From assembly GCF_008801405.1 (NCBI RefSeq), contig NZ_VZPV01000001.1:2220115-2252114 (forward strand): DNA of 32,000 nt, given 5' to 3'. This document shows, in pieces, positions 6,236 through 22,283 of this stretch. The first letter of the stretch is position 1. Each line of letters begins with the position of its first letter. The DNA is from Ralstonia insidiosa (GTDB lineage: Bacteria > Pseudomonadota > Gammaproteobacteria > Burkholderiales > Burkholderiaceae). The notes under the pieces were generated by a model that worked only from the letters and a program-made list of their open reading frames with translations, was not told the DNA's origin and did no database searches. The position numbers were made by a program, and so were the translations under genes.

Positions 6236-6433
6236 CTACCCCCTACGCTCATTAATCGAACACAGACAGTCGTCTCCCTGTCCGTGAAGCGGCATGACCG
6301 ACAGTGAGCGCGTTGTATAGAAAGCGTAGCCATGCCACACCGCCAGCGCGGTGATGGCGGCAACGTTGAAGCAGCGCATTACAAGGAAAAACTGGGCGAG
6401 TCGAGACAACTCGCGCCTGGTAGCGAACGGCAT
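6236..6433 (-). CDS. Hypothetical 65-aa protein, a possible first gene or leader of the sulfur-relay operon.
   Basis: ATG at 6433 is preceded by AGGAG with a 7-nt spacer. The stop TAG lies 4 nt before the moeZ-like ATG. GC3 is about 68% by my count. There is one hydrophobic segment (FFLVMRCFNVAAITALAVWHGYAFY) and a Cys-containing tail (GDDCLCSINERRG). I recognise no family. Confidence 0.3.
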   Translation of the reverse strand: MPFATRRELSRLAQFFLVMRCFNVAAITALAVWHGYAFYTTRSLSVMPLHGQGDDCLCSINERRG

Positions 6434-6629
6434 GGTGCAGCTCCTGATCAAAGGGGAACGTATCGGGTGCGCAGCGATGGACCGCGCCTGGCATGCAGCG
6501 AGCAGCGGTCATGTCGCCAAGGGCACGGCCCGGCGTATTCAGTGCATCAACCCGACGGACGTCCCGTTGGATTTATGCTTGCTCTCCGGCAATGAACACC
6601 GGCGGAGCAAGGCCATAGGCGTGCGACGG

Positions 6630-6652
6630 CGTGCCGCTCAAGCAGCGGCACG
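6630..6652 (-). terminator. GC-rich stem-loop after the DUF2946 gene (possible attenuator or terminator, no U-tract).
   Basis: CGTGCCGCT-caagc-AGCGGCACG: a perfect 9-bp stem with a 5-nt loop, about 15 nt downstream of the DUF2946 stop. Confidence 0.3.
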
Positions 6653-6666
6653 AACGCCAGCAGCGA

Positions 6667-10300: not shown

Positions 10301-12001
10301 ATGAAAACGCGTCTGCTTCCCGTTCATCCCTCGGTCGACACCCCACCTGATTTCCCCGACACCGCCGAACTGGCGGCGCTGCGTGCCTGGCATGCTGGTT
10401 TGTCCACCCGCGAAGCCGTTGAGCGGTACCTGGGCGAGCGCCGGGTGCCAGGGCAGTCCTCGCGCAGCGTGCTCAGCCGCATCCGGCTCCAGCTCGCCAC
10501 GTTTGCGCGCCAGCGGCAGCGCGAGGACCTGGCGGTACTGTTTGAGATACCAGCGGCTGAGCGCGCCAAACAGGGCAGGGCGGCTGACCAGGCGATCGAA
10601 CTGCTTCGCACGCTGCCGCTGCCAGCCCCGCTGATCAGCGATGACGTGGAACGATGGCTGGACGCGCGCGCCGTCGCCGCACTGCGGGCCGTCGGCATCG
10701 ACACCCTGGCGGATCTGACCGTCCGCGTGCCGCGCCGGCGTCGTTGGTGGGCGGCCATTCCTGGGCTGGGGCAGGCTGGTGCGCGGCGGATCGAGGCGTT
10801 CTTTGCCGAACACCCGCGATTGACCGAGCGTGCCCGGGCGCTGATCGCTGCACAGGTCCGCGGTGTGGTGGTGCCCTGGGAGCAATTGCGGCTGCCGCAC
10901 GAAGTCGACGGCTCGCAAGGGCAATTCCGTGCGCCGCGCGCGACCTGCGTGCTCACTGCCGACAACGACTACGAGGCCGTCCAGGCCTGGCTTTCCCTAC
11001 ACGAATCCCCCGCAACCCAGCGGGCGTACCGCAAAGAAGCCGAGCGCTTGATGTTGTGGGCGATCGTCGAACGCGGTCGGCCGCTATCGTCACTGACCAC
11101 CGAGGATGCAATCGCCTACCGTGGCTTCCTGCGTCGACCAACGCCGCGAGAACGCTGGGTCGGGCCGGCACGCCCGCGCACATCCGTCGAGTGGCGGCCA
11201 TTCACGGACGGGTTGTCTGCGCGCTCGGTCGCCTACGCGTTGTCCGTGTTGGGGGCCATGTTCCGGTGGCTGATTCAGCAGCGCTACATGCTGGCCAACC
11301 CGTTCGCTGGCGTCAAGGTGCGCGGCGGCGGCAGGACTGCCGCGCTGGATGCCTCGCATGCATTTAGCGACGGCGAATGGGCGCTCGTGCGCACGATTGC
11401 CGACGGTTTGGAGTGGTCCTACGGCTGGGAAGCACCCGCCGCACAGCGGCTGCGTTTTGTATTGGATTTTGGCTATGCAACGGGCCTGCGGGCGAGCGAA
11501 CTCGTTTCTTCCAAGCTCGGTGACGTCGAAACGGATCGGCAGGGCGATCACTGGCTGAACCTGGTGGGGAAGGGGAGCCGCGCCGGCAAGGTCGCGCTGC
11601 CGCCGCTCGCGTGTTCGGCTATCGACCGCTACCTAGTAGAGCGCGGGCTGCCCGTCACGCGGTCGCGCTGGAACCCGAAGACGCCGCTGGTTGGTGGCTT
11701 GGGGTTGGATCCTGGCGGCGGGATTACGGGAACGCGGTTGTGGAGTGTGGTGCGGCGGTTTTTTGAGACCGCCGCCGATGTCATCGAGAACGACCATGCA
11801 GTAATGGCTGAGAAGCTACGCAAGGCCAGCCCACACTGGATGCGGCATACGCATGCCACTCACGCACTCGCGCGCGGTGCGGAACTGACCACCGTGCGGG
11901 ATAACCTGCGGCACGCGTCCATCTCGACGACGTCGATCTATCTGCATGGTGACGACGTGAAGCGGGCTCGGCAGATCAATGCGGCTTTTGCGGCAGAATG
12001 A
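10301..12001 (+). CDS. Tyrosine recombinase / phage-type integrase with a long (about 200 aa) N-terminal extension containing a helix-hairpin-helix-like segment.
   Basis: 566 aa. Catalytic region: ATGLRASEL (Arg I), HWMRHTHATHAL (H-x-x-R), LRHASISTTSIYLH (nucleophile Tyr). The N-terminal IPGLGQAGARRIEAFF is HhH-like. No clear SD at the ATG. Confidence 0.85.
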   Translation: MKTRLLPVHPSVDTPPDFPDTAELAALRAWHAGLSTREAVERYLGERRVPGQSSRSVLSRIRLQLATFARQRQREDLAVLFEIPAAERAKQGRAADQAIELLRTLPLPAPLISDDVERWLDARAVAALRAVGIDTLADLTVRVPRRRRWWAAIPGLGQAGARRIEAFFAEHPRLTERARALIAAQVRGVVVPWEQLRLPHEVDGSQGQFRAPRATCVLTADNDYEAVQAWLSLHESPATQRAYRKEAERLMLWAIVERGRPLSSLTTEDAIAYRGFLRRPTPRERWVGPARPRTSVEWRPFTDGLSARSVAYALSVLGAMFRWLIQQRYMLANPFAGVKVRGGGRTAALDASHAFSDGEWALVRTIADGLEWSYGWEAPAAQRLRFVLDFGYATGLRASELVSSKLGDVETDRQGDHWLNLVGKGSRAGKVALPPLACSAIDRYLVERGLPVTRSRWNPKTPLVGGLGLDPGGGITGTRLWSVVRRFFETAADVIENDHAVMAEKLRKASPHWMRHTHATHALARGAELTTVRDNLRHASISTTSIYLHGDDVKRARQINAAFAAE

Positions 12002-12051
12002 AATCAAGGCCGCAATGGCCCGAAAGCCATTACCAATGGAGTCCGACCGTT

Positions 12052-12441
12052 ATGAAGCCGACCTTCCAGGAGCGCCAAGAACTTAGAAGTCAGTTTGCCA
12101 ACGATGTCGACAGGATGGTGCTTTGCTTGCAAGCGACTGCCGTCACCGCCACAGATGATGAAGTCGTCCAGGCTTGGGCTGAGTACTCCGACGACAACCG
12201 TGCTGGTTGGCTAACTCTTCCAGAAAGTGATGAGACCTTACGCCAGCTTCTGATCAAGTATTTGACAATAACAAGGACACGACTCGTTTGGCGCGTCACC
12301 GGCGTCGAAGCAACGGACGGGACCGGCGATTTCATCGTCCCGCTGCCATCGGAACTGCTTGAACAGTTGGGGTGGCAAATCGGCGAGGAATTGGCGCTTG
12401 AACAAGTTGAACCCGGCACCGTGCGGTTGCGACGCACCTAG
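12052..12441 (+). CDS. Hypothetical protein with a C-terminal AbrB/MazE/SpoVT-like (swapped-hairpin) segment.
   Basis: The track ORF starts at 11998. The ATG at 12052 has GGAG upstream. The C-terminus DFIVPLPSELLEQLGWQIGEELALEQVEPGTVRLRR resembles SpoVT/AbrB antitoxin-like DNA-binding domains. GC is lower than the flanks. Confidence 0.5.
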   Translation: MKPTFQERQELRSQFANDVDRMVLCLQATAVTATDDEVVQAWAEYSDDNRAGWLTLPESDETLRQLLIKYLTITRTRLVWRVTGVEATDGTGDFIVPLPSELLEQLGWQIGEELALEQVEPGTVRLRRT

Positions 12442-12675: not shown

Positions 12676-12703
12676 AACGCGTGTAATTTGCATTATGTTA
12701 AAT
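12676..12703 (+). repeat. dif-like site, prophage attL (AACGCGTGTAA-TTTGCA-TTATGTTAAAT).
   Basis: The last 11 nt are identical to the XerD arm of E. coli dif (TTATGTTAAAT). The XerC-arm position partly matches GGTGCGCATAA (6/11). The 17 nt at 12687-12703 are repeated exactly at 21888-21904. Confidence 0.7.
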
Positions 12704-12726
12704 CACGACGCAAATTGTGGGCGCGT

Positions 12727-12972
12727 CTACAACAGGCGCTGCGTGCAATCCAGGCACGCGCGGAACCGGCAACCGCGTGACCGGCAACACATCAGCAAGT
12801 CCAGCACCTCCCTCTTCGAAACGCCTGCATCGAGCAGGCGTTTTTTCTTCTTCTCGATCTTCCTGTAGTAGCGCCTACGCGGCGCGTCTTGGATGCCACG
12901 GCGCAGATGCCGGATGTGCCAATAAAGGTTCCGGATCTCGCGCGCCAGCGCCCGCTTTTCATCGTCAGACAC
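12727..12972 (-). CDS. Hypothetical 81-aa basic protein (uncertain).
   Basis: GTG start with AGGGG upstream and high GC3 (about 80% by my count). The helical basic sequence MSDDEKRALAREIRNLYWHIRHLRR... However, it runs antisense through the plus-strand terminator and the phage-form repressor tail. Confidence 0.35.
   Translation of the reverse strand: MSDDEKRALAREIRNLYWHIRHLRRGIQDAPRRRYYRKIEKKKKRLLDAGVSKREVLDLLMCCRSRGCRFRACLDCTQRLL
12820..12850 (+). terminator. Rho-independent terminator on the plus strand.
   Basis: AACGCCTGC-atcga-GCAGGCGTT followed by TTTTTTCTTCTTC. It lies about 40 nt after the TGA (12778-12780) that would end the repressor ORF in the circularised phage. Confidence 0.6.
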
Positions 12973-13020
12973 TTCGCCCCTGCGTGTTATCTTTACGCAA
13001 CACTAGCAATGGGGTGCGCG

Positions 13021-13518
13021 ATGCGCAACATCAACCTGTGGACGATTTTGATCTGCCTTGCCGGCGGCCTATACGTCTACGAGTACTACCCGCGAAACGG
13101 CGCCAAGATCGAAATTGCCATCCCGGCAGTCACCCATCAGGAACCGGCCGTAGCACCTGCACCTGAGCCGCCAAAGCCCGCACCAGTAGTCAACACACAG
13201 CCCACATACACGCCACCGCCACCAGCACCGGCGCAGCCACAGCAATCGGGCAGCATCGATCCGTGGACGGCCGAGCTAGCGCGCCAAGCTGACGCCCGCA
13301 TCGCACGCCAACGCGGCGAGTGGGCAGCGCAAGACCGGCAAGCCGCCCAGGTACAGGCAGCGCAAGCAAACGCCGCTGCAGCAACCTGCATCGGTCTACG
13401 GCAAGAGAAAGAGGGAATTTTGGCGAGCCAACGCCACGGTGGGACGGCTCAATGGATGAACTATCTGAACGACCGGTTCCACACCGTCTCAGACGCGCTG
13501 TATCGCAACCGCTGCTGA
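13021..13518 (+). CDS. Hypothetical membrane-anchored protein with a proline-rich linker (prophage accessory).
   Basis: Trimmed from the 12889 track start to the ATG at 13021: MRNINLWTILICLAGGLYVYEYY (N-terminal TM), then PAPEPPKPAPV...PPPPAPAQPQQ and a Gln/Ala-rich C-domain. Weak RBS. Confidence 0.5.
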   Translation: MRNINLWTILICLAGGLYVYEYYPRNGAKIEIAIPAVTHQEPAVAPAPEPPKPAPVVNTQPTYTPPPPAPAQPQQSGSIDPWTAELARQADARIARQRGEWAAQDRQAAQVQAAQANAAAATCIGLRQEKEGILASQRHGGTAQWMNYLNDRFHTVSDALYRNRC

Positions 13519-13771
13519 AAATCCCAGCTGGAGATCCACACGATGGTTTTTGAAGGCCCGCGCCAGGACTAGCTTTGCTGGCGATTTTTCCTGCAGGAGA
13601 AAAGCGGGCTTGCAAGAGAGGGGGTGTTTGGATGTGGGCAGCCTTGTATGTACCTACCTGGTCGTACCCGCTGCTCGGTCCCGCCAGCCGCACTGGCCGT
13701 GCGACAACCGCCAGAGATCCCGCCCACGCCCCACCTCTACCGCCTGGTCATGGGCGCGGACACTCCCGACG

Positions 13772-13975
13772 CTAGTCCATATCGATCACGTCATCGATCG
13801 AGTGCAACGAGATCACCAAGCGCAGGCGCGACACCCCACGCTCCTTCATCGCACGCTCTATCAACTCCTCAAGCGTCACCGACCAAGCATCAGAGCCCCA
13901 CGAGGTGTCAGCCAAAATCGAAAAGCGGTCAGGCACGCCACCAGGAACCTCGTTGATTCGCGTCAGATCCAGCAT
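13772..13975 (-). CDS. Hypothetical 67-aa acidic protein, third gene of the prophage accessory operon.
   Basis: The ATG lies 1 nt after the stop of the upstream ORF, with GAGG upstream. I recognise no family. Confidence 0.5.
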   Translation of the reverse strand: MLDLTRINEVPGGVPDRFSILADTSWGSDAWSVTLEELIERAMKERGVSRLRLVISLHSIDDVIDMD

Positions 13976-13976
13976 C

Positions 13977-14537
13977 TCAGCCTCGCAAGACTTTTTTCGT
14001 TACGCGCTTACGCGTAACAGGTTTGACAGCAACTTCACCACTGCCGACCTTGCCATAGACCTGCAGCAGCTCGATCTTGTAGTTATCAATCGCCGCACGA
14101 GCTGAGACCAGCTCACGCGCCAACTGCTCAATCTCCCGCTCAGCATCAACGTTCTTATCGAGCTGAACAGACAACTCGTAACGCACGCGAAACAACTCGT
14201 CGCAAACCTCAGCCAAATGATCGTTCTCACGGTCGCGCCCGTTCAAATAGCCTTCCAGCTCATCAATACGCTTACGAGCCTCCACCAGCTCAGCACGCAA
14301 CCATTCCACCTCGAGGCGGCACTCATCGTAGGCATCAACGTCGGAAAGCATTTCCGTTACAGTCATGCACTTAGTAACGGATTTAGCCTCAACCGGCTGC
14401 TGAGCCTTGCGACGAGCTCGAAACGCTGCCTGCCGCTCTGCATTGCTCATCGCGTGCGCCTTGCGCGGACGACCACGGCCACGCTTCTGCTCTACACCAG
14501 CCAGCTCGCCAGTCACGTTATCCGTTACGTCACGCAT
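13977..14537 (-). CDS. Hypothetical 186-aa protein with an AT-hook-like GRGRPRK motif and a long coiled-coil region.
   Basis: The track ORF extends to 14624. I trimmed it to the ATG at 14537 (MRDVTDNVTGELAG...), 1 nt after the upstream ORF stop. KRGRGRPRKAH is followed by heptad-like LRAELVEARKRIDELEGYL...EIEQLARELVSARAAIDNYKIELL. Confidence 0.6.
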   Translation of the reverse strand: MRDVTDNVTGELAGVEQKRGRGRPRKAHAMSNAERQAAFRARRKAQQPVEAKSVTKCMTVTEMLSDVDAYDECRLEVEWLRAELVEARKRIDELEGYLNGRDRENDHLAEVCDELFRVRYELSVQLDKNVDAEREIEQLARELVSARAAIDNYKIELLQVYGKVGSGEVAVKPVTRKRVTKKVLRG

Positions 14538-14538
14538 A

Positions 14539-14733
14539 TCAACCCCACACCTTGACTGCAACGACGCAGAGCACCAGAAGGCTCGCAACACCGCCCCACA
14601 GCGCAACCTTAAGGCGCAGCGCACGACGACGACAGTCCTCCAGGAACATCTCCCGAATCTCCGGGATCGCCATCAGCTCAGACTCCGTATAAACCGGCCC
14701 GGAAACAACGGAATTATTCGTTACGTCACGCAT
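14539..14733 (-). CDS. Hypothetical 64-aa protein with a C-terminal transmembrane helix, first gene of the accessory operon.
   Basis: GGGAGG RBS 5 nt upstream of the ATG. MRDVTNNSVV... shares its first residues and a 22-bp DNA stretch with the next ORF. C-terminal LWGGVASLLVLCVVAVKVWG. Confidence 0.6.
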   Translation of the reverse strand: MRDVTNNSVVSGPVYTESELMAIPEIREMFLEDCRRRALRLKVALWGGVASLLVLCVVAVKVWG

Positions 14734-14758
14734 ATTCGCCTCCCGATCTGATGAATCT

Positions 14759-14787
14759 ATTTTACGTTACTCGTAACGGATATTCAA
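14759..14787 (-). promoter_or_regulatory. Near-consensus sigma70 promoter (TTGAAT-N17-TAAAAT) with a CGTTAC-GA-GTAACG palindrome filling the spacer.
   Basis: The minus strand reads TTGAAT atccgttacgagtaacg TAAAAT, about 25 nt upstream of the 64-aa ORF ATG, in the AT-richer gap between that ORF and the zot stop. Confidence 0.55.
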
Positions 14788-14817
14788 TTACTGTTACACT
14801 TTTCCCCGTAACGAAAA

Positions 14818-16161
14818 TTACCCATGTGACCAATGCTGCGTTCCGTCGTACGCAGCACTGCGCCGGATATGCCGCGGCGGCGCGGCATCGTCCGGGATGT
14901 TCGTAATGCTCGGCGGCAGATCCACGACGCCACGACCCATCACCTGGTCATCCTGGGCGGGCCAACCCTCCGGGCCAAAGTCCTGCACACGCTCATCGCG
15001 TGCGCTGCGCAAATCAGCGCCAGACATCGCACGCACACCCTCGACCTGCTTCTCCGGCACCTTGCCGTAAATATCGATGGGCCACATCGTCACGACGATG
15101 CGCCGCTCTCCCTTCGCCAGGATGACGTGCTGGCCGTACTGCGACTCCTGCACCTTCCAACCCAGCTCCTCCACGGTCGCGGCCGACAGTCGCTCACGCA
15201 CGCGTGATGAGTCGTCATACCAAGCGACCAGCACGTCGGCCTGGCCACGAGCACGTGCCCACCCTTCCAGGCGCGGCCGGTACTTCTTCGCCAGACCAGC
15301 AATGAAATCGTCGTCCTCCGGCGCTGGCTTCGGATCCGCAGCTTTCGCGGCCGGAGCTGCGGGAACCTTCTCAGCACCGGCCACCGGCGGCGTGCTCGAG
15401 CTCGTGACACTCGTTGTGACCACGTGCTTTTCCTCCGGCTTGGACCCAACCAAACCACCGCCCTTGAACAGGTACACGAGATAGCCGATAGCACCGAACG
15501 CAACCAAGGCGAAGAGCGGGATCCACACCCGGAAGGCCTTGGTCTTGAAAATATTCGCAGCACTGTCTTCCAGCGTATCGGTGTTCGTCGTGCCGTCGGT
15601 ATGGCTCTTGTAGAGACCGAAGTACTTTTCCTCGTACTCCCCGGACCCGTCCGACACCTTCTCGAAGCGATCCCCCTTCTGCCCCTTCACCTTCTTGTAG
15701 ACGGTCCACTTGAACTCGTTCGGCTTGCCGACCACGTCCTTCTTCTGGAACACATATTTCCGGTCGATACGACGCTTCCAGATGTTGTGCACGTCGTTCA
15801 GATCCTGCCCCATCAAGATAATGTCGATGCCGTCGTGACCGTGCTGCGTCACGAACTTCGTCATCGGCTTGTCCAGCGGCTTGAAGCTCGACGGCCAGTA
15901 ATCCTGCGCCTCGTCCAACACGTAGAGCGCATCCTTCACGACGTGCTCATAGAGACGCGGCATATCCTCGTCACCGATGCACTTCACCAGCTCGCGCACG
16001 CGCTCTACATCAACGCCGGTGAGCTCGGCAGCCATCTCCATGTTGAAGCCATCGACATTGGTGACAACATGCCGCCCCTTGATGATCGCTTCGAGGATCC
16101 ACTTCACAACGGCCGTGTACGATTTACCCGCACGCGGCAGACCTTCAAAGAAATTGATCAT
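14818..16161 (-). CDS. Zot-like / pI-family phage assembly ATPase.
   Basis: Trimmed from 16296 to the ATG at 16161, 4 nt after the pVI-like stop. MINFFEGLPRAGKSY is the P-loop Walker A typical of the Zot/pI N-terminus. There is a DEAQ Walker B-like motif and a central TM segment (VWIPLFALVAFGAIGYLVYLF). Confidence 0.9.
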   Translation of the reverse strand: MINFFEGLPRAGKSYTAVVKWILEAIIKGRHVVTNVDGFNMEMAAELTGVDVERVRELVKCIGDEDMPRLYEHVVKDALYVLDEAQDYWPSSFKPLDKPMTKFVTQHGHDGIDIILMGQDLNDVHNIWKRRIDRKYVFQKKDVVGKPNEFKWTVYKKVKGQKGDRFEKVSDGSGEYEEKYFGLYKSHTDGTTNTDTLEDSAANIFKTKAFRVWIPLFALVAFGAIGYLVYLFKGGGLVGSKPEEKHVVTTSVTSSSTPPVAGAEKVPAAPAAKAADPKPAPEDDDFIAGLAKKYRPRLEGWARARGQADVLVAWYDDSSRVRERLSAATVEELGWKVQESQYGQHVILAKGERRIVVTMWPIDIYGKVPEKQVEGVRAMSGADLRSARDERVQDFGPEGWPAQDDQVMGRGVVDLPPSITNIPDDAAPPRHIRRSAAYDGTQHWSHG

Positions 16162-16165
16162 GGTG

Positions 16166-16498
16166 TCACCACTGGCCGAGCGTAAAGAGCTTGCGCACGA
16201 ACAGCCGGAACGCCACAGCACCCCCGAGCATCGCCAAGCCCTGCGGGATGTTGAAAACCGAAACGAAGTACAGGATGTCGCTGCCCATCTGACCAATCAG
16301 CGACTGCAACGAGTACTGCGTAAGGAACTGAGGCGCCGGAGCCGCAGCGATCAACGAGGCAACTGCCGACAGGAACAGATCGAAGGCGGCAATCGCAAGG
16401 TCGATGGTGATGTCCCACATCGCCTGGAACACCGCGACAAAGACTTTCCCGAACCACGCCAGGACAGAAGACAGGGCATTGATGATGGCATCAAACAT
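16166..16498 (-). CDS. pVI-like minor coat / membrane protein.
   Basis: 110 aa, strongly hydrophobic, positioned between the pIII-like and pI genes as in Ff and RSS-type phages. Confidence 0.6.
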   Translation of the reverse strand: MFDAIINALSSVLAWFGKVFVAVFQAMWDITIDLAIAAFDLFLSAVASLIAAAPAPQFLTQYSLQSLIGQMGSDILYFVSVFNIPQGLAMLGGAVAFRLFVRKLFTLGQW

Positions 16499-16510
16499 CG
16501 CTCAGCCCCC

Positions 16511-18082
16511 TCACAGAAAGGCAATCGCAAACGCGGCAAAGGCAGCGGCCGCGAGCACCGCATACCCGGCAATCTGATACGCCAATGAAGCTGACGAGCT
16601 GCAGAAGATCGGCCCCAACGCAATCGACGGTGTCCAATCCGTCTGAGGCACGACCCACTGCGGACAAGTACCAGACGCATTCACGGTAAAAAAGCCCTGC
16701 ACACCTGCCCCAATGGCAGAAGCCTTCACGGTGTTAGCAAAAGCGTTGAGCACATCTCCAAACGTCTTCGTCTTCTTGTCGTACAGCTTGATGTCCGGAC
16801 TCACGAGCGTAGCCGTCGTCGGTTGCGGCTTGTCCTGCTGATTCGCCGGGTTGCCACCAGTTGCGGGCGGCGCTTGATCGGTCGTCGTCGTCGTCGTGGT
16901 GGTCGTGCTGCCGTCCGGATTCGTGACCGTTGTCGACGTCGATGTTGTTATCGTGGTCTGCCCCTCAACAGGGTTAGTCCGATCGTTGGTGCCCGTCACC
17001 GTGGTGGTCTTGGTCGTGGTGTTCGTCGTCGTCGTCTTGCTGCCATCGGCGTTGACCTTAGTAGACGAATCCGTCGAGGGCGCCGTCGTCACAGTTGCGG
17101 ACGGGCACGACGTGCTATTCACCGCGCAACCGTTGTTCGTCCAGCTAGAACCGCCAGTAGAAAACGACACGCCGAAGCCAGTGCGCGAATCGCTATACAG
17201 GCCATAACACGGGTCAGAGGTAGACCCATCGGTGAGAGCCAGCGTCGGCCCACAGTTCATATCGTTGTAGATCGACGGCCACGAGTCAGGATGCGCCTTG
17301 ATGGCACCCTGAATCTGCGCATCAGTAGCAGCCTGCTTCGGCGCAGACGGATCAGGAGAACACGCAGACCCACTATTCACATAACCAGTGGCGCAGGCGC
17401 CCGTTTGGTTCGCCCTGCTATACGGATAAAAATCCAAATCGCTCTTTAGAATTTTTGCAGTGCCGGTGTACGTACCATCACCATTGGCAACCACACCACC
17501 GTACTGATACCAAGTACTCGGCATGCTCGCCCTGCACGCAGCATCCGGACTATCGCCATACCCGCTGCCGCCACCAGCGCTGCCCCAATTGCAAAACCAC
17601 TGATGCCCGTTAAACCCTACGTCACCCGCGCTGGCAGACAACGCAGGCGCAACTACCTGCCCGTTGCTATCAAGCGAAACATCACCACCAAGGCGATTCA
17701 TCAACGTCACCAAAGCAACGCCGCCGATGATGCCCCCACGAATGGCCGTCATGCCAACCGAAGCCATCACATCACCCGCCACCGCAGCAGTGCCCACGGC
17801 AGGAATGGCGACAGCAGCAACGCCCACAGCCGCAACACCAACGGTGATCGGTATCAGCACGTTCATCACGTTGTTGGACGGCGGTTGCGGCACACCATTA
17901 CCGCTCTGTCTCGCTGACACATCGACGCCCACACTATTGCCCTGAATGCACATCTGCCCGGGCATCGTGCACCCACCGTAACCCACTGCCGCGCGCGCCG
18001 AACCAGCCATCAATACGCCAGCGATCAGAAACACGCACGCCAAGTCGAGCAAAAACTCCGCAAACCTCAGACGCTTGTCCAT
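16511..18082 (-). CDS. pIII-like minor coat / host-adsorption protein.
   Basis: 523 aa with a signal peptide (...MAGSARA), Cys-containing N-terminal domains, Thr/Gly-rich linkers (TTTTNTTTKTTTVTGT; STTTTTTTTTDQ) and a C-terminal membrane anchor (YAVLAAAAFAAFAIAFL). It sits after the coat gene. Confidence 0.7.
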   Translation of the reverse strand: MDKRLRFAEFLLDLACVFLIAGVLMAGSARAAVGYGGCTMPGQMCIQGNSVGVDVSARQSGNGVPQPPSNNVMNVLIPITVGVAAVGVAAVAIPAVGTAAVAGDVMASVGMTAIRGGIIGGVALVTLMNRLGGDVSLDSNGQVVAPALSASAGDVGFNGHQWFCNWGSAGGGSGYGDSPDAACRASMPSTWYQYGGVVANGDGTYTGTAKILKSDLDFYPYSRANQTGACATGYVNSGSACSPDPSAPKQAATDAQIQGAIKAHPDSWPSIYNDMNCGPTLALTDGSTSDPCYGLYSDSRTGFGVSFSTGGSSWTNNGCAVNSTSCPSATVTTAPSTDSSTKVNADGSKTTTTNTTTKTTTVTGTNDRTNPVEGQTTITTSTSTTVTNPDGSTTTTTTTTTDQAPPATGGNPANQQDKPQPTTATLVSPDIKLYDKKTKTFGDVLNAFANTVKASAIGAGVQGFFTVNASGTCPQWVVPQTDWTPSIALGPIFCSSSASLAYQIAGYAVLAAAAFAAFAIAFL

Positions 18083-18085
18083 CGC

Positions 18086-18163
18086 TCAGCCCTCACTCAA
18101 CCCACGAACAGCAGCAACACCGCACGCAGCGCCCAACAGGAAATACGCCAGCAACCAGAACAT
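18086..18163 (-). CDS. Possible 25-aa hydrophobic peptide (pVII/pIX-like minor coat candidate), below the ORF-track size cutoff.
   Basis: My translation is MFWLLAYFLLGAACGVAAVRGLSEG. AGGGGG lies 4 nt upstream of the ATG, and the stop is 3 nt before the pIII-like ATG. Confidence 0.35.
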   Translation of the reverse strand: MFWLLAYFLLGAACGVAAVRGLSEG

Positions 18164-18232
18164 GGGACCCCCTAAACCGTTAACCAAAAACGGCCCGCAC
18201 AAGGCGAGCCGTCCGCACTGCAATGCGACCAA

Positions 18233-18454
18233 TCAGCGGAAGAAGCCGACCAGCTTGTTGACGGCCCACTTCGTCACGTTCGGCACGATCTTCACCGCAC
18301 CCATCGAAACGATCCCGGCACTCACAGTACCGATGGCCACCGCCGAAATGATGCTCGACAGGTCCGGACCAGTTGCCTGCGCCATCGCTGCACCAGCCGC
18401 ACCAACCGTCAACGTGAGACCCACTGCGATCTTGTTGCCCAAATTGCCCTTCAT
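18233..18454 (-). CDS. Major coat protein (pVIII-like) precursor.
   Basis: 73 aa with a signal peptide ending AMA-QA. The mature protein is about 48 aa, with an acidic/neutral N-terminus, a hydrophobic core and a basic C-terminus (KWAVNKLVGFFR). Confidence 0.75.
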   Translation of the reverse strand: MKGNLGNKIAVGLTLTVGAAGAAMAQATGPDLSSIISAVAIGTVSAGIVSMGAVKIVPNVTKWAVNKLVGFFR

Positions 18455-18463
18455 GATTGACTC

Positions 18464-18712
18464 CTAGTCATTGAACATGGCGACCAAACGACCGATTGCG
18501 TAGCCCACCAAGTAGGACGCCGCCACCAGCCCAAATGCCGTCACAAACACTGTCGCCAAATCTGCCTGCGACGGAACCTGCATCCACGTGTAGAACGTGG
18601 TCGCGTTCTGGAACTCCCCAGGCGTCAGCATCAGGTACCCCTGACACGCCTGCGGCGCATCGTTGGTCACCGTCAACGCGCCGCCGTCGGCGACCAGAAC
18701 GCACTGAGCCAT
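18464..18712 (-). CDS. Small phage membrane protein (82 aa).
   Basis: C-terminal TM (VFVTAFGLVAASYLVGYAIGRLV). Tightly packed between the ssDNA-binding and coat genes; its start overlaps the upstream stop. Confidence 0.5.
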   Translation of the reverse strand: MAQCVLVADGGALTVTNDAPQACQGYLMLTPGEFQNATTFYTWMQVPSQADLATVFVTAFGLVAASYLVGYAIGRLVAMFND

Positions 18713-19038
18713 TACGCTTCCACCACGTCGAGCACGTGATCGACCGGCACGATGGTTTCCACCTCGCCTGTGTCCTTGTTCTTAAACTGATACGGCTTGC
18801 GCTGATAACCGCCCAGGCTGCACAACACCGTCACTTCGTCGCCCTTCTCACCGAGCTTCTGTTTGGCGCGCACCTCAACCACCTGCGGACGGCTGTAAGC
18901 GTCCGGCGCGGGCGTGATGATTCGCGTGTACCGCGTGCCATCGAACGAACGCATCTGCTCAATGCGGCCACGAACCATCACCTGCATGGGCTTAATGGAA
19001 GCGGGCTTCTGTGCACCCGGTGTGTTTTCCTGAGACAT
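18712..19038 (-). CDS. Probable ssDNA-binding protein (pV-like), called by position and size.
   Basis: 108 aa, immediately downstream of the Rep gene as in inoviruses. Basic, beta-rich-looking sequence. No motif-level proof. Confidence 0.5.
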   Translation of the reverse strand: MSQENTPGAQKPASIKPMQVMVRGRIEQMRSFDGTRYTRIITPAPDAYSRPQVVEVRAKQKLGEKGDEVTVLCSLGGYQRKPYQFKNKDTGEVETIVPVDHVLDVVEA

Positions 19039-19047
19039 GACTGCTCC

Positions 19048-20238
19048 TTACGCGGCAAGCCGCAACGTTTCCCGGCTCACTTGCAATTCCTCGCGGTTGC
19101 GCGCCGGGAGATGGCACAGCCGTGGGTCCGTCCGTACCGGACTGAAATCGTGGGGAAGTACGCCGCCGTTGGCGACGACCACCACATCGGTGCCGCGCCA
19201 GGACACGCCGGCATCCTCAAGCTGCTTGCGGTTCCGGTAGAACACCGTCCTAGCGAAATGCTCACGCGTTACCTCGTCACCCAGCGTGCACAGCGAAGAC
19301 CAGAAGCCATACAGCCGAGTACCAGTCGAATCGCCATACACACCCTTGAGGCGGTGAAGCACCGCCCTGCTCTCTCTCACCGTCGTCATCGCTTGCTTCC
19401 CCTCGCGCAGGAGCTTCTCGATCTCGGTGTCAAAGACGCCCTCCAGATACGCGTCCGTCACCTCATCCACTCGCGGATGCTTCCCAAAGTCGTACTGGAG
19501 CTTGTCGCTATGCACTTCCACCTCGGCGCGCAGGCGGTTCTCCGCCAGGCGCAGGAGCGCTGCAACCTTGCGCTCGGCCAGCACACGGCTACGTTCCTCG
19601 TCGTGCCCGTGACGATGCTTGAACACCTGCGAGAAAAAGCCCCGCAGGCGGCCACGGTCATGCACCTGGAACTCGGTGCCCTTGTGATAGAACTTGACCG
19701 TAGTGGTCTTGCCCGCGAAGTACACCGCCATGGAGTACTTCGCTGCGCCCTTCTGCCGGCGCGGAAAGCTGATGAGCTGCAGGCCGTCGAAGAACTCCTT
19801 GCACGCAGCCTTCGAGAGCCGATAGACCGATGCCACGTCAACGCGATGCACGGTCCACCAGTCGGCCACCGGCAAATCGGTCTGCAACAGATCCTCGACC
19901 AGAGCGACGAAGTCGCGGCACGCCTGCAAGAAATTCGCGGGCCCACCGTAGACGTTGTGGCCGTGCTTGATCTTGTGCACCGACGCTTCGATGAGGATGT
20001 ACGGGTCACACGGCACCAGCTCGGGACGGCCGTTCTTATTGACTACCCACTCCTCGTTCTTCGGGATCACCGAGATGCGTGAATCCCAGGAGCCGAGCAG
20101 CTCGCCCGTGAACAGCTCATAGAGGATTTCGCCGCTGGCGCAGTCCAAGCCAGAACGCAACAGGCACTGCCGTTTGATGCGCTCAACCACGGCGTTGCCA
20201 AGGTACGGAGAGCGCAACCGGACGGTGTCGTAGGCCAT
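19048..20238 (-). CDS. Rolling-circle replication initiation protein (pII / phage CRI family).
   Basis: 396 aa. Its position at the head of the structural module, and regions such as YILIEASVHKIKHGHNVYGG, are consistent with filamentous-phage Rep proteins. The start overlaps the upstream stop (ATGA). Confidence 0.75.
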   Translation of the reverse strand: MAYDTVRLRSPYLGNAVVERIKRQCLLRSGLDCASGEILYELFTGELLGSWDSRISVIPKNEEWVVNKNGRPELVPCDPYILIEASVHKIKHGHNVYGGPANFLQACRDFVALVEDLLQTDLPVADWWTVHRVDVASVYRLSKAACKEFFDGLQLISFPRRQKGAAKYSMAVYFAGKTTTVKFYHKGTEFQVHDRGRLRGFFSQVFKHRHGHDEERSRVLAERKVAALLRLAENRLRAEVEVHSDKLQYDFGKHPRVDEVTDAYLEGVFDTEIEKLLREGKQAMTTVRESRAVLHRLKGVYGDSTGTRLYGFWSSLCTLGDEVTREHFARTVFYRNRKQLEDAGVSWRGTDVVVVANGGVLPHDFSPVRTDPRLCHLPARNREELQVSRETLRLAA

Positions 20239-20630
20239 CAGAACCCCTCGCCAGAATCCGAGGAATTCCCGAAATCGGGACTGTCAGGCGGTGCTACCAC
20301 GCCCGCCTGACAAAAAGCAGCCTCGCTGCGCGAGGCCAAAAACTCGGCTTCCGCAGCGTCAGAAAGTGCTGCATTCACGTCATCAAGGGACAGAGAACCA
20401 CGACGAGCGGCCACACGGCCGCCCGATGCGTTGCGATAGGCTTGCTCCGACGCACGCGCACGGCGCGCGGCCGCTTTCTGCTCGAGCAACTCACGCAGCC
20501 AGACTGGCATCGTCTGACCTGCAGCCGCTGACGCAACCGGAATGACACGCCCAGCGCGGCGGGCCGCGCCCTCCGGGGCGGCGCCGGCGCGCAGGGCGGC
20601 AGAACTCGACTGAGATTGGCCGCCCTTCAT
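20238..20630 (-). CDS. Hypothetical phage protein (130 aa, Ala/Arg-rich).
   Basis: Translationally coupled at both ends (ATGA overlaps) within the phage early operon. Confidence 0.45.
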   Translation of the reverse strand: MKGGQSQSSSAALRAGAAPEGAARRAGRVIPVASAAAGQTMPVWLRELLEQKAAARRARASEQAYRNASGGRVAARRGSLSLDDVNAALSDAAEAEFLASRSEAAFCQAGVVAPPDSPDFGNSSDSGEGF

Positions 20631-21037
20631 TGCCCGTTCTCCAAACGCGAGTCCTGCATGCGGCGAAAAACGTCCGCGAGCAGATCCTTGTCGGTCGGCT
20701 GGCCCTCTTCGTCCAGTTCGCCGCCCTCGTCCAGGTAGTCTTCAATCGCTTCCTGCAGATCGACCTCATACGCATCAGCCATCGCTGCATTGGCCTCATC
20801 CAGCTCGGCGCGCAGATAGTCGACTCGCTCGCGCAGCGCCTCGGCAACAGCGCACAAATGGTTGTAGCGCGCCATGACCTCGTCGCGCTCCTCTTCCGTC
20901 CAGGCACCGATGCGCAACCCGTCGTTCGCCTCAAGGCCCTCTTCAAAGGCCTCATTGATCAGGTCAGCAAATTCCTCGAGCTTGTCCTCGCCAGCAGCGA
21001 TGATCTCTTCCAGCTCGCGCAGGTTGTAGTCGCTCAT
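20627..21037 (-). CDS. Hypothetical highly acidic phage protein (136 aa).
   Basis: Glu/Asp-rich helical sequence in an operon context. I recognise no family. Confidence 0.5.
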   Translation of the reverse strand: MSDYNLRELEEIIAAGEDKLEEFADLINEAFEEGLEANDGLRIGAWTEEERDEVMARYNHLCAVAEALRERVDYLRAELDEANAAMADAYEVDLQEAIEDYLDEGGELDEEGQPTDKDLLADVFRRMQDSRLENGQ

Positions 21038-21393
21038 CGGGCACCCCGCTGTGCAGCGCGGTACTTACTCGCAAAGCGCTCCAGCTCGAGACGGCGAGCA
21101 ACACGAGGAGAAACGTACGCGACGAGCTGGAAAGCGTCTGACACAACAGCACGCACCGCGCGCACGGGCAAAGAGACAATGACCAGCAACAGCACGGCGT
21201 ACACACACGACACCATGCGCACCCACCACAAGAAAGTGATGACGGCAGTGACGCCGCTGAAATCGATGTAGGCGAGTAGCCAGATCGCGTCGCGCGCGGG
21301 GCTGATTGAAGCGGCGAGCAGCGAAAGCGCCGTCGCGCAGAGGAAAAGAGGGATGCGACTACGGACGAAACCGTCCACCAGCTGGCTTTCCAT
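21034..21393 (-). CDS. Hypothetical phage membrane protein (119 aa, 2-3 TM).
   Basis: AGGGGG RBS. Hydrophobic segments IPLFLCATALSLLAASI and VTAVITFLWWVRMVSCVYAVLLLVIV. First gene transcribed leftward from the operator region. Confidence 0.5.
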   Translation of the reverse strand: MESQLVDGFVRSRIPLFLCATALSLLAASISPARDAIWLLAYIDFSGVTAVITFLWWVRMVSCVYAVLLLVIVSLPVRAVRAVVSDAFQLVAYVSPRVARRLELERFASKYRAAQRGAR

Positions 21394-21435
21394 CGTTTAC
21401 CCCCTGCCCGGTTAACCGGTTATATTTCGCTTGAA

Positions 21436-21484
21436 ATCTCAGGCGAGATTCATCTCGGGTGAGATTAAATATCTCGGGTGAGAT
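21436..21484. promoter_or_regulatory. Three tandem palindromic operators ATCTC-N4-GAGAT in the divergent control region of the prophage.
   Basis: ATCTCAGGCGAGAT (21436-21449), ATCTCGGGTGAGAT (21452-21465) and ATCTCGGGTGAGAT (21471-21484). Centre-to-centre spacing is 16 and 19 bp. They lie between the leftward early operon and the rightward repressor gene. A 12-bp palindrome CCGGTTAACCGG sits nearby at 21408-21419. Confidence 0.65.
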
Positions 21485-21510
21485 GTTGTCAAGGCAGATG
21501 GAGGCAACAG

Positions 21511-21906
21511 ATGAAAAGCACGAAGTACCTGGACGCCGTCAAGCAGGCACACCAGCTCAAGAACGACACGGCCCTAGCAGACCTGCTGGGCGTAGGTCAG
21601 AACACCGTTAGCCAATGGCGTAACGGAAAACGATTCATGGATAACGAAATGTGCCTGAAGCTCGCACAGGCCCTGGACATGCAGGACCCCATGCCGATCA
21701 TCATGGCCGCGGATATGGACCGAGCTGAGCGCGCTGGTCAGCGGTCGCTATGGGAAGTTTTTTCACCGAGGATGGCGCATAGCGGCCTGGTCGCCCTCCT
21801 CGTCGCGCTGCTGGCCAGTGTCACAAATTTTGCGACACCCTCACCCGCCGAAGCCGCGCCGTTGAGCCATTCGTCGGCCCCTAACACTTTGCATTATGTT
21901 AAATAA
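21511..21906 (+). CDS. Phage repressor-like HTH (XRE/Cro-CI type) protein with a C-terminal hydrophobic segment. Its 3' end lies in the dif-like attR.
   Basis: ATG at 21511 with GGAGG 6 nt upstream (the track start is 21478). The HTH is DTALADLLGVGQNTVSQWRNGKRFM. The final codons L-H-Y-V-K-stop are encoded by the dif-like repeat, and the TAA straddles the repeat/chromosome junction. Confidence 0.8.
   Translation: MKSTKYLDAVKQAHQLKNDTALADLLGVGQNTVSQWRNGKRFMDNEMCLKLAQALDMQDPMPIIMAADMDRAERAGQRSLWEVFSPRMAHSGLVALLVALLASVTNFATPSPAEAAPLSHSSAPNTLHYVK
21877..21904 (+). repeat. dif-like site, prophage attR (GCCCCTAACAC-TTTGCA-TTATGTTAAAT).
   Basis: The central region and XerD arm are identical to attL. 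The XerC-arm position is phage-derived and unlike dif consensus. Confidence 0.7.
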
Positions 21907-21944: not shown

Positions 21945-22283
21945 CTAAGCCTTCTTCAAAAACTCCGGCTTGAGCAGATAGCTCACCCCATCGATCTTGC
22001 AATCGATCGGATGGTCGCCCGAGACAAAGCGGATGTTCTTGATCTTGGTGCCGGCCTTGAGCGTGCCCGACCCGCCCTTGAGCTTCAGGTCTTTGACCAG
22101 CGTGGCTGCATCGCCAACGTTCAGGACATTGCCGTTGCTGTCCTTGATCACGAGCTCGGCTTCCACTTCGACTTCCTGCGCTGCCGGGTTCCACTCGTGC
22201 GCGCAATCTGGGCAGATGAAGAGTTCGCCATCCTGGTAGGTGTTTTCAGAGGCGCATAGCGGACAAGCTGGAATGGCGGACAT
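21945..22283 (-). CDS. yjdM: YjdM/PhnA-family zinc-ribbon protein.
   Basis: Trimmed to the ATG at 22283. MSAIPACPLCASENTYQDGELFICPDCAHEW...GDHPIDCKIDGVSYLLKPEFLKKA matches the PhnA/YjdM architecture at about 112 aa. Confidence 0.85.
   Translation of the reverse strand: MSAIPACPLCASENTYQDGELFICPDCAHEWNPAAQEVEVEAELVIKDSNGNVLNVGDAATLVKDLKLKGGSGTLKAGTKIKNIRFVSGDHPIDCKIDGVSYLLKPEFLKKA

What the first reader, a model, noticed from the sequence alone, without database searches (positions are those of the whole stretch)
21511..21906. Integration rewrites the C-terminus of the phage repressor and separates it from its terminator
The repressor ORF ends ...L-H-Y-V-K-stop. The last five codons are the dif-like repeat, and the TAA is formed from the final T of the repeat plus two chromosomal bases.

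Joining attR to attL, as in the circular phage, keeps the frame open. It would continue from 12704 for 25 more codons (SRRKLWARLQQALRAIQARAEPATA) to the TGA at 12778-12780. That is followed about 40 nt later by a strong plus-strand terminator at 12820-12850.

The episomal repressor would thus be 156 aa with a basic amphipathic tail and a proper terminator. The prophage form is 131 aa and reads into host DNA toward the convergent yjdM. From memory, RSS0-type Ralstonia inoviruses carry attP inside a repressor ORF (ORF13), so there is a precedent, but it needs checking. The functional difference between the two isoforms could be a lysogeny or superinfection switch.

Complication: an 81-aa minus-strand ORF (12727-12972) with high GC3 overlaps this tail and the terminator.
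Basis: partly seen in the sequence, partly recalled or inferred. Interest (0 to 1): 0.7.

Follow-up and report, generated by a model that had tools for sequence, protein, structure and literature searches.

The report
Phage repressor gene split by integration
A filamentous prophage of Ralstonia insidiosa carries its chromosomal attachment site inside its own repressor gene, so integration removes the repressor's last 25 residues and its terminator; this was already described for the related phage RSS0, and its functional consequence has not been tested.

Summary
A 17-nt exact repeat (dif central region plus XerD arm) bounds a 9,201-bp inovirus prophage. The repressor ORF ends ...LHYVK-TAA at attR. 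Joining attR to attL gives a 156-aa protein followed by a strong terminator.

The episomal form is real. Phage RSS0 ORF13 is a 156-aa homologue with the same tail and terminator. A circular 7.3-kb metagenomic phage contig carries the intact junction. Across 120 relatives, tail-bearing forms (152-156 aa) sit on phage-sized contigs and tail-less forms (128-134 aa) sit on chromosomes.

The phenomenon is already published. Yamada 2013 reports attP inside RSS0 ORF13, truncation from 156 to 130 aa on integration at dif, and the same two-isoform hypothesis. The best-known analogue is mycobacteriophage integration-dependent immunity.

New here:
- The module is conserved across Burkholderiales inoviruses, with the XerD arm read in all three frames and the tail frame always restored.
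- The "complicating" 81-aa antisense ORF is a real phage gene (phrog_27692). It accounts for much of the conservation of the tail's last residues.
- The first 8 tail codons lie outside that gene and show their own purifying selection.

Verdict: a new member of a known kind. Function of the two isoforms is untested.

The parts
12687..12703 (+). attL core: dif central region (TTTGCA) plus XerD arm (TTATGTTAAAT). The candidate host XerC arm lies just to the left (AACGCGTGTAA, 12676-12686).
   Evidence: Exact 17-nt repeat; the arm occurs only twice in the window; the same layout is seen in prophages L004-L013.
21888..21904 (+). attR core, embedded in the last five codons and the first base of the stop of the prophage repressor gene.
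12704..21887 (.). Body of the inovirus prophage (circular form 9,201 bp). Main genes are on the minus strand: Rep (Phage_CRI), ssDNA-binding protein, capsid, a 523-aa gene in the position of the receptor-binding protein (no family match), DUF2523, Zot. No recombinase was found among the ORFs searched.
   Evidence: Pfam and PHROG hits; called genes of L018; strongly negative GC skew and lower GC than the flanks.
21511..21906 (+). Prophage form of the repressor gene: 131 aa, with an N-terminal HTH_3 / CI-repressor-type domain and a hydrophobic helix at 91-109. The stop TAA is made from the repeat's final T plus two host bases.
   Evidence: identical protein WP_064803419.1 in Ralstonia insidiosa.
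12703..12780 (+). Detached 3' exon-like piece of the repressor gene: 25 codons (SRRKLWARLQQALRAIQARAEPATA) plus TGA. It is translated only when attR and attL are joined.
   Evidence: Homologous tail in RSS0, L003 and 17+ database proteins. Plus-frame purifying selection on the first 8 codons.
12818..12854 (+). Intrinsic terminator of the episomal repressor transcript. It lies inside the coding sequence of the minus-strand 81-aa gene.
   Evidence: conserved in RSS0, L003-L013 and other loci.
12727..12972 (-). 81-aa phage gene of unknown function (phrog_27692). It is basic with a Cys-rich C-terminus (CCRxxxCRxxxCLDC). It converges on the repressor gene in the circular form and overlaps its last 18 codons in the codon-aligned antisense frame.
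   Evidence: PHROG E = 2e-40; conserved as far as Paraburkholderia; pN/pS 0.21 in the overlap; annotated as WP_231973201.1.
21436..21484 (.). Three copies of the palindromic 14-mer ATCTCGGGTGAGAT, between the repressor gene and the divergent phage genes. These are candidate operators.
   Evidence: family D7. Their function is inferred.
21945..22283 (-). Host yjdM/phnA-like gene, convergent with the truncated repressor gene.
   Evidence: Pfam; gene calls of L018.

Best explanation
The window holds a dif-integrated inovirus prophage of Ralstonia insidiosa whose attachment site lies inside the 3' part of its own XRE/CI-type repressor gene, as in phage RSS0.

In the circular replicative form the gene encodes 156 aa: an HTH domain, a hydrophobic helix, a linker that contains attP, and a basic amphipathic C-terminal helix. 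It ends at an intrinsic terminator. There it converges on, and overlaps by 18 codons, a small phage gene (phrog_27692) on the other strand.

Host Xer recombination at dif (inferred) moves the last 25 codons, the terminator and the convergent gene to the opposite end of the prophage. The lysogen therefore makes a 131-aa repressor that stops at a TAA built from the last base of dif plus host DNA.

My preferred functional reading is inferred by analogy and not shown. This is an integration-dependent switch. The truncated form is the stable immunity repressor of the lysogen. The full-length form, or its convergently overlapped transcript, is attenuated or has a different role while the phage replicates as an episome.
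For: Shown:
- Exact att repeat and frame continuity.
- 156-aa homologues in isolated phages RSS0 and RSS20.
- Intact junction in the circular contig L003.
- Of 17 tail-bearing relatives, 16 lie on contigs under 10 kb. Of 103 tail-less relatives, 72 lie on contigs over 10 kb, up to 3.98 Mb (Fisher p = 6e-7).
- Prophages in Ralstonia, Cupriavidus, Paraburkholderia and Herbaspirillum have the truncated ORF at attR; the tail after attL was seen in the Ralstonia and Cupriavidus loci.
- The XerD arm is read in all three frames in different phages. The arm-to-tail spacing is 31, 30 or 29 nt accordingly, so the tail frame is always restored within one phage.
- The only mismatched junctions found are L079/L080, a junction with another element's tail piece, and L038, read the same way.
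- The 8 tail codons outside the antisense gene give pN/pS 0.46 in the repressor frame, against 1.08 to 2.81 in the other frames.
- The terminator is strong at attL and absent after attR.
- No recombinase was found among the prophage ORFs searched.
- In L009, attL keeps the phage-type arm (TTATGTCAAAT) and attR has the host-type arm. This places the crossover left of arm position 7, as expected for an exchange on the XerC side.

Literature:
- RSS0 attP lies within ORF13, with truncation from 156 to 130 aa on integration at dif. The RSS0 lysogen is immune to RSS0 (PMC3816273; PMC4471427).
- In BPs-type mycobacteriophages the truncated repressor is the active one (PMC4557955).
Against: - No experiment or dataset here shows that the two isoforms differ in activity or stability.
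- In the 16-codon overlap the antisense gene is the more constrained reading (pN/pS 0.21 against 0.74). The last 8 tail codons are unconstrained in the repressor frame (1.42), so no conserved C-terminal degradation tag is evident.
- The AlphaFold model gives the tail only pLDDT of about 55-60 and shows no confident contact with the HTH domain.
- No empty attB and no episomal copy of this particular phage was found.
- Dependence on XerCD is inferred from the sequence of the site and the absence of a recombinase among the ORFs searched. A DUF3701 tyrosine recombinase gene lies just outside attL.
Confidence: 0.9

Rival explanations
1. The 25-codon continuation is a by-product with no function of its own. 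The functional repressor ends near the att site. The open frame and the conserved tail sequence exist only because the DNA encodes the C-terminus of the real minus-strand gene (phrog_27692), read in the stop-poor, codon-aligned antisense frame of a GC-rich genome.
For: In the overlap the minus frame is clearly more constrained (pN/pS 0.21 against 0.74). The last 8 tail codons give 1.42 in the plus frame. Many substitutions are synonymous for the minus gene and non-synonymous for the tail. The minus ORF is a recognised phage family and its Cys motif is conserved as far as Paraburkholderia.
Against: The first 8 tail codons (SRRKLWAR) lie outside the minus ORF. They still show plus-frame purifying selection, including CGC-AGA and CGA-AGG arginine codon swaps (pN/pS 0.46 with pS 0.68; other frames at or above 1.08). 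Three different entry frames into the XerD arm are each compensated by a 31, 30 or 29-nt spacing. Out-of-frame junctions were seen only at L079/L080, where the neighbour is another element's tail piece, and at L038, read the same way.
Confidence: 0.15
2. The prophage was integrated not by host XerCD at dif but by the DUF3701-type tyrosine recombinase encoded immediately left of attL (10301-12001). The repeat would then be that enzyme's att core.
For: A Phage_integrase-family gene lies about 700 bp from attL. XerCD dependence was not tested.
Against: The repeat consists of a dif-type central region plus a perfect XerD arm identical to the E. coli arm (own knowledge of the dif consensus). The recombinase gene lies outside the repeats and would not be carried by the circular phage. 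Homologous prophages in R. thomasii and R. mannitolilytica have the same att layout with LysR, AraC and MFS genes on that side and no such integrase. RSS0 was mapped to the dif site (PMC3816273). The central region co-varies between phage and host (TTTGCA, TTTATC, TGTATC, TTTGTG).
Confidence: 0.04
3. The 131-aa gene is a decayed remnant in a defective prophage. The truncation would then be damage, not a designed state.
For: Truncated genes at prophage ends are often decay products.
Against: The truncation point is exactly the att core in dozens of independent prophages (endings ..YVK..LC or ..IMLN by frame). The HTH domain is intact and modelled at pLDDT above 90. The Rep, ssDNA-binding, capsid, DUF2523 and Zot genes are present as intact ORFs. 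The identical 131-aa protein is indexed in 79 blocks of the assembly collection.
Confidence: 0.03

Closest known systems
Ralstonia phage RSS0 ORF13/attP module (Restivirus; Yamada 2013, Askora & Yamada 2015)
   Same: The repressor is homologous (63% identity, both 156 aa). The dif-like attP sits at the same position in the ORF, and the tail motif and downstream terminator are the same. Integration at dif shortens the protein (156 to 130 aa in RSS0, 156 to 131 aa here). Neither phage encodes a recombinase.
   Different: The phage backbone differs: 9.2 kb with a Phage_CRI-type Rep, and only the repressor region is similar to RSS phages at the DNA level (76-79%). The host species differs (R. insidiosa), as does the dif central region (TTTGCA against TTTATC). 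The XerD arm is read in a different frame (..LHYVK.. against ..ILCKI..). Here the stop comes from host bases after dif; in RSS0-type prophages it is the TAA inside the host's XerD arm.
Integration-dependent immunity of mycobacteriophages BPs, Brujita and clusters G, I, N, P (Broussard et al. 2013; Villanueva et al. 2015)
   Same: attP lies inside the repressor ORF. The prophage makes a C-terminally shorter repressor (136 to 103 aa there, 156 to 131 aa here). The repressor is transcribed divergently from the early or lytic genes across an operator region.
   Different: The repressors are not homologous. Those phages are tailed dsDNA phages with their own tyrosine integrase next to the repressor gene. 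There the full-length form carries an ssrA-like degradation tag and the activity difference has been shown experimentally. Here the host Xer system is used, the C-terminal residues are not conserved in the repressor frame, and nothing has been tested.
IMEX elements that exploit XerCD at dif (CTXphi, VGJphi, TLCphi, Xanthomonas Cf1c/XacF1)
   Same: A filamentous phage with no recombinase found, flanked by dif-like repeats, with the crossover on the XerC side of the site.
   Different: In the window phage, attP has a perfect XerD arm, a central region fully identical to the host's, and a poor XerC arm that doubles as coding sequence. To my knowledge attP is not described as lying inside the repressor gene in the Vibrio or Xanthomonas phages (own knowledge, not checked here).

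Membership tests
RSS0-type ORF13/attP repressor module | Protein homologous to RSS0 ORF13 over its full length | tested here: met
   P0036 (RSS0_0013): E = 4e-50, 63% identity, 100% coverage of the reconstructed 156-aa protein. Alignment A1. phrog_638, E = 6e-40.
RSS0-type ORF13/attP repressor module | dif-like attP located inside the 3' part of the ORF | tested here: met
   The core repeat covers codons 127-131. It sits at the same alignment position as TTATGTAAAAT in RSS0.
RSS0-type ORF13/attP repressor module | Integration creates a new stop and removes about 25 C-terminal residues | tested here: met
   131 aa against 156 aa. Published for RSS0 as 130 against 156 aa (PMC3816273). R. nicotianae proteins P0059 and P0064 are 130 aa and end ..FILC.
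RSS0-type ORF13/attP repressor module | Confers immunity or represses phage genes | not testable with these tools
   Supported only by an HTH_3 / Phage_CI_repr domain and three palindromic repeats upstream.
IMEX (Xer-exploiting integrative element) | No self-encoded integrase or recombinase | tested here: met
   Eleven prophage ORFs were searched with Pfam and/or PHROGs, and the precomputed Pfam hits of all called genes in L018 were inspected. None is a recombinase. ORFs shorter than about 60 aa were not all searched.
IMEX (Xer-exploiting integrative element) | att site made of dif-type XerC arm, 6-bp central region and XerD arm, integrated at the chromosomal dif | tested here: inconclusive
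   The XerD arm is perfect and the central region is shared. The XerC arm at attL (AACGCGTGTAA) matches the E. coli arm at only 6 of 11 positions. No empty attB was recovered. The GC-skew sign change across the site is weak in a 32-kb window.
IMEX (Xer-exploiting integrative element) | Integration depends on XerC/XerD | not testable with these tools
   Inferred from the site, and from the literature on RSS0, where it is also inferred (PMC3816273).
Integration-dependent immunity (BPs type) | attP within the repressor ORF, with a shorter prophage-encoded form | tested here: met
Integration-dependent immunity (BPs type) | ssrA-like C-terminal degradation tag on the viral form | tested here: not met
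   The tail ends ..EPATA..EPAPA or ..KTAPC, with no LAA-type ending. The last 8 codons give pN/pS 1.42 in the repressor frame. This does not exclude another instability determinant.
Integration-dependent immunity (BPs type) | Phage-encoded integrase adjacent to the repressor gene | tested here: not met
   No integrase lies within 12704-21887.
Integration-dependent immunity (BPs type) | Short form active and stable, long form inactive | not testable with these tools
   Needs protein stability and repression assays.

The most novel reading that the evidence does not exclude
A host-Xer-driven counterpart of integration-dependent immunity may be conserved across Burkholderiales inoviruses. In the episome the repressor carries a selected basic helical tail, and its transcript converges on and overlaps the phrog_27692 gene. 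Recombination at dif removes the tail and the terminator and uncouples the two convergent genes in one step. Chromosomal integration would then itself set the switch between productive replication and silent, immune lysogeny. The XerD arm is translated in any of three frames, and frame-2 phages carry the single arm change (TTATGTAAAAT) that avoids an in-frame TAA. This would show long-term co-adaptation of a recombination site with a coding sequence.
Probability: 0.4. Interest if true: 0.65.

Novelty: new member of a known kind. Interest (0 to 1): 0.42.

Why it matters
Inoviruses shape virulence and biofilm behaviour in Ralstonia and related bacteria. How they choose between chronic production and silent lysogeny is poorly understood.

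A repressor whose length is set by whether the genome is integrated would be a simple built-in sensor of integration state, as shown for some mycobacteriophages. Here it would be operated by the host's own chromosome-dimer resolution system.

The idea was proposed for RSS0 in 2013 but never tested in print, as far as the searched literature shows. This window, together with the family-wide pattern found here, shows the arrangement is widespread and under selection, and it defines clean constructs for testing it.

There is also a practical point. Annotation pipelines call the 131-aa prophage form and miss the detached 25-codon piece.

Tried and rejected
- Exact-pattern scans for this phage's attB, attP, attL and attR (WRYAM-core-MAMRWMSS) found nothing in metagenome contigs or viral contigs.
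- A broader attP-type pattern (YTTTGCATTATGTTAAATC) in metagenome contigs gave 31 hits. All were unrelated AT-rich sequences with no repressor ORF. No empty site and no episomal copy of this exact phage was therefore recovered.
- I first took the conserved tail sequence as evidence that the tail is functional. The pN/pS comparison showed that much of this conservation belongs to the antisense gene, so I replaced that argument with the test on the non-overlapped spacer and the frame-compensation test.
- I first thought the third codon positions of the two strands coincide. Recounting coordinates showed the codons are fully aligned, with plus position 1 opposite minus position 3.
- RSS0 seemed to have the antisense ORF out of frame. 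That traces to one extra T in the hairpin loop of the RSS0 record, which also contains ambiguous bases. A related RSS-type contig (L026) lacks it, so I did not use it as evidence.
- The AlphaFold model was too uncertain beyond residue 90 to say what the tail contacts, and I ran no fold search on it.
- A literature search for a follow-up to "Tasaka et al., in preparation" found nothing.

Full report
**1. The observation**

- The 17-mer TTTGCATTATGTTAAAT occurs at 12687-12703 and 21888-21904, 9201 nt apart.
- Its last 11 bases are the canonical XerD arm of dif. In the 32-kb window, allowing one mismatch, this arm occurs only at these two places, against 0.03 expected.
- The ORF 21511-21906 (+) gives 131 aa ending ...NTLHYVK, followed by TAA. 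The T of the stop is the last base of the repeat.
- Continuing from the same repeat at attL keeps the frame open for SRRKLWARLQQALRAIQARAEPATA, up to TGA at 12778-12780, for 156 aa in total.
- A hairpin at 12818-12844 followed by a T-run folds at -17.9 kcal/mol (z = -5.1).
- After attR the plus strand has no comparable structure (-3.1 kcal/mol, z = +0.8). The only terminator-like hairpin there is on the minus strand downstream of yjdM, and its fold is no more stable than shuffled sequence.

**2. What the element is**

The region between the repeats is an inovirus. On the minus strand it carries:

- a Phage_CRI-type replication protein;
- an ssDNA-binding protein (phrog_8473);
- a 73-aa inovirus capsid protein;
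- a 523-aa ORF with no family match, in the position of the receptor-binding protein;
- a DUF2523 protein and a Zot-type assembly ATPase.

The HTH repressor is transcribed divergently, across three copies of the palindrome ATCTCGGGTGAGAT. None of the prophage ORFs searched is a recombinase.

An exact protein look-up places the window in Ralstonia insidiosa, chromosome CP016022.1. The prophage has lower GC and a strongly negative GC skew relative to both flanks.

**3. Is the 156-aa form real?**

Four independent lines say yes.

(a) Isolated phages RSS0 and RSS20 encode a 156-aa ORF13. It is 61-63% identical to the reconstruction. Its tail reads ...ILCKIARRLRERLQQALRAVQTSPKTAPC and is followed by the same GAAACGCCTGC...GCAGGCGTTTTT terminator.

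(b) A 7,346-nt JGI contig with a 127-nt terminal overlap, hence circular, carries the uninterrupted junction. Its 156-aa ORF ends ...SLHYVKSRRRLWARLQQALRAIQARAEPAPA.

(c) Of the 120 relatives listed by the protein search:
- 17 carry the tail motif. They are 142-156 aa long (median 155), and 16 of them lie on contigs under 10 kb.
- 103 lack it. Their modal lengths are 129, 131 and 133 aa, and 72 lie on contigs over 10 kb, up to 3.98 Mb.
- The association is significant (Fisher p = 6e-7).

(d) Prophages in R. thomasii, R. mannitolilytica, R. mojiangensis, Cupriavidus, Paraburkholderia and Herbaspirillum all have the truncated ORF ending in the XerD arm at attR. In the Ralstonia and Cupriavidus loci the tail-coding piece directly follows the arm at attL.

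**4. The att site in three reading frames**

In different phages the repressor enters the XerD arm at codon position 3, 1 or 2.

- Position 3 gives ..LHYVKS.., as in the window.
- Position 1 gives ..ILCKIA.., as in RSS0.
- Position 2 gives ..LMLNRR...

The distance from the arm to the conserved RLQQ motif is 31, 30 or 29 nt respectively. The same tail frame is therefore restored every time.

Frame-2 phages carry TTATGTAAAAT instead of TTATGTTAAAT. That is the one change that avoids an in-frame TAA. Their prophage forms end ..LC, at the TGT TAA supplied by the host arm.

In Cupriavidus laharis (L009), attL keeps the phage-type arm (TTATGTCAAAT) and attR has the host-type arm. The crossover therefore lies left of arm position 7, as expected for an exchange on the XerC side.

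Two mismatched junctions were found. In L079/L080 (protein P0033, 180 aa) the neighbour is the tail piece of a different element, while that phage's own attL tail matches its frame. L038 also mismatches (arm entered at codon position 1, 29-nt tail spacing), and I read it the same way without having checked its neighbour.

**5. The "complication"**

The minus-strand ORF 12727-12972 is a real gene.

- It matches phrog_27692 (E = 2e-40).
- It is annotated in R. insidiosa as WP_231973201.1, in a 41-member cluster.
- It is conserved as ...AREIRxLYWHIRxLRRGxQDAxRRRYYRKIxKKKKRLLxAGVSKREVLDLLMCCRSRGCRFRACLDCTQRLL, and its Cys motif persists in Paraburkholderia.

In the circular phage it converges on the repressor gene. 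It overlaps the repressor's last 18 codons in the fully codon-aligned antisense frame; its TAG stop is the antisense of a tail Leu codon, CTA. The repressor's terminator hairpin lies inside its coding sequence.

Nei-Gojobori counts over 15 distinct sequences gave these pN/pS values for the 16 shared codons:

| Region | Minus-strand gene | Repressor tail (plus frame) |
|---|---|---|
| All 16 shared codons | 0.21 | 0.74 |
| First 8 (QQALRAIQ) | 0.09 | 0.23 |
| Last 8 tail codons | 0.29 | 1.42 |

Much of the tail's apparent conservation is therefore imposed by the other strand. The extreme C-terminus of the repressor is not conserved as protein.

The 8 codons between the arm and the end of the minus gene (SRRKLWAR) are a different case. 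They give pN/pS 0.46 with pS 0.68 in the repressor frame, including CGC/AGA and CGA/AGG arginine swaps. Every other frame of the same DNA gives 1.08 to 2.81.

Together with the frame compensation in section 4, this shows that the tail is translated and selected, at least through its basic amphipathic part.

**6. Structure**

An AlphaFold model built from a 19-sequence alignment shows:

- a confident HTH domain (residues 1-89, pLDDT above 90);
- a low-confidence hydrophobic helix (93-105);
- a disordered linker (106-125) that contains the XerC-like arm and the central region;
- a C-terminal helix (126-149, pLDDT about 55-60) that begins at the att-encoded LHYVK.

The 19-residue segment 91-109 has a mean Kyte-Doolittle hydropathy of 1.83. 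The tail carries six K/R residues against one D/E. The model is too uncertain to say what the tail touches.

**7. Mechanism**

Shown:
- the architecture;
- the two gene products and their lengths;
- the loss of the terminator on integration;
- the physical separation of the two convergent genes on integration.

Inferred:
- recombination by host XerCD at dif. This rests on the nature of the site, the absence of a recombinase among the ORFs searched, co-variation of the central region with the host (TTTGCA, TTTATC, TGTATC, TTTGTG), and the RSS0 mapping in the literature;
- a functional difference between the two isoforms.

My preferred model is integration-dependent control. The truncated form would be the lysogen's stable immunity repressor. 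This is consistent with the RSS0 lysogen being immune to RSS0. The full-length form, and/or convergent transcription into phrog_27692, would attenuate repression while the genome is episomal. I put about 0.4 on a real functional difference of this kind. The structural statement itself I hold at about 0.9.

**8. Comparison with what is known**

Yamada (2013, PMC3816273) already states that attP lies within ORF13 of RSS0 and that integration at dif creates a new stop, shortening ORF13 from 156 to 130 aa. The paper also suggests that the free and prophage forms may act differently, citing unpublished work. Askora and Yamada (2015, PMC4471427) repeat the attP-in-ORF13 statement. I found no later experimental follow-up.

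The established functional analogue is integration-dependent immunity in mycobacteriophage BPs and its relatives, where gp33 goes from 136 to 103 aa (PMC4557955). Three things differ here:
- the repressors are not homologous;
- there is no phage integrase;
- there is no recognisable ssrA-like tag.

The window is thus a new member, in R. insidiosa and on a different phage backbone, of a known arrangement.

Three things appear to go beyond the literature I could read:
- the family-wide distribution of the module;
- the three-frame use of the XerD arm with compensating spacing;
- the overlapping convergent gene and its effect on tail evolution.

**9. Verdict**

- Observation: confirmed.
- Interpretation: supported structurally; unproven functionally.
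- Novelty: new member of a known kind.
- Interest: moderate.

Noticed in passing
window 18719-20534 (Rep and ssDNA-binding genes): Four GenBank records share 1.8 kb at 84.9% identity with this Ralstonia insidiosa inovirus: 'Lentisphaerae phage WC36-1' (OL791267), 'Inoviridae phage WC36-1' (ON698679), 'Phage WC36-1' (OR402836) and 'Phage WC36-1-filamentous' (PP701473). A phage attributed to a deep-sea Lentisphaerae host therefore looks like a Ralstonia-type inovirus. Ralstonia is a common reagent contaminant (own knowledge).
   Followed up: no
window 10301-12441: A 566-aa DUF3701 + Phage_integrase tyrosine recombinase and an overlapping 147-aa gene with a weak (sub-threshold) MazE_antitoxin match lie immediately left of attL. 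The corresponding side of homologous prophages in R. thomasii and R. mannitolilytica has LysR, AraC and MFS genes instead. This may be part of another element lodged next to dif. The XerC arm here (AACGCGTGTAA) is also less canonical than in those genomes (..GCGCATAA).
   Followed up: partly
window 21781-21837 (repressor residues 91-109): The repressor family has a conserved hydrophobic segment, SGLVALLVALLASVTNFAT, with a mean Kyte-Doolittle hydropathy of 1.83 over 19 residues. It is long enough to be a membrane helix or a buried oligomerisation helix, and AlphaFold confidence is low there. A membrane-tethered inovirus repressor would be unusual.
   Followed up: partly
L080 8395-8560 and L079 7435-7600: In these contigs the truncated repressor at attR abuts the tail piece and terminator of a different IMEX. 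This produces a frame-shifted 180-aa fusion ORF (P0033, and similarly P0029). It is evidence for stacked or decayed elements at dif, and a source of misleading 'long' repressor annotations.
   Followed up: yes
window 14518-14539 and 14714-14735: A 22-nt direct repeat, TTATYCGTTACGTCACGCATAT (95% identical, 196 nt apart), lies near the start of the minus-strand ORF 13977-14624, downstream of zot on that strand (family D10). Its purpose is unknown; it could be a replication or packaging signal.
   Followed up: no
L001 (RSS0, NC_019548) about 6400-6660: The RSS0 reference sequence contains ambiguous bases. It also has one extra T in the terminator loop relative to a related RSS-type contig (L026), which puts the phrog_27692 homologue out of frame. 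This is possibly a sequencing error in the reference record.
   Followed up: partly
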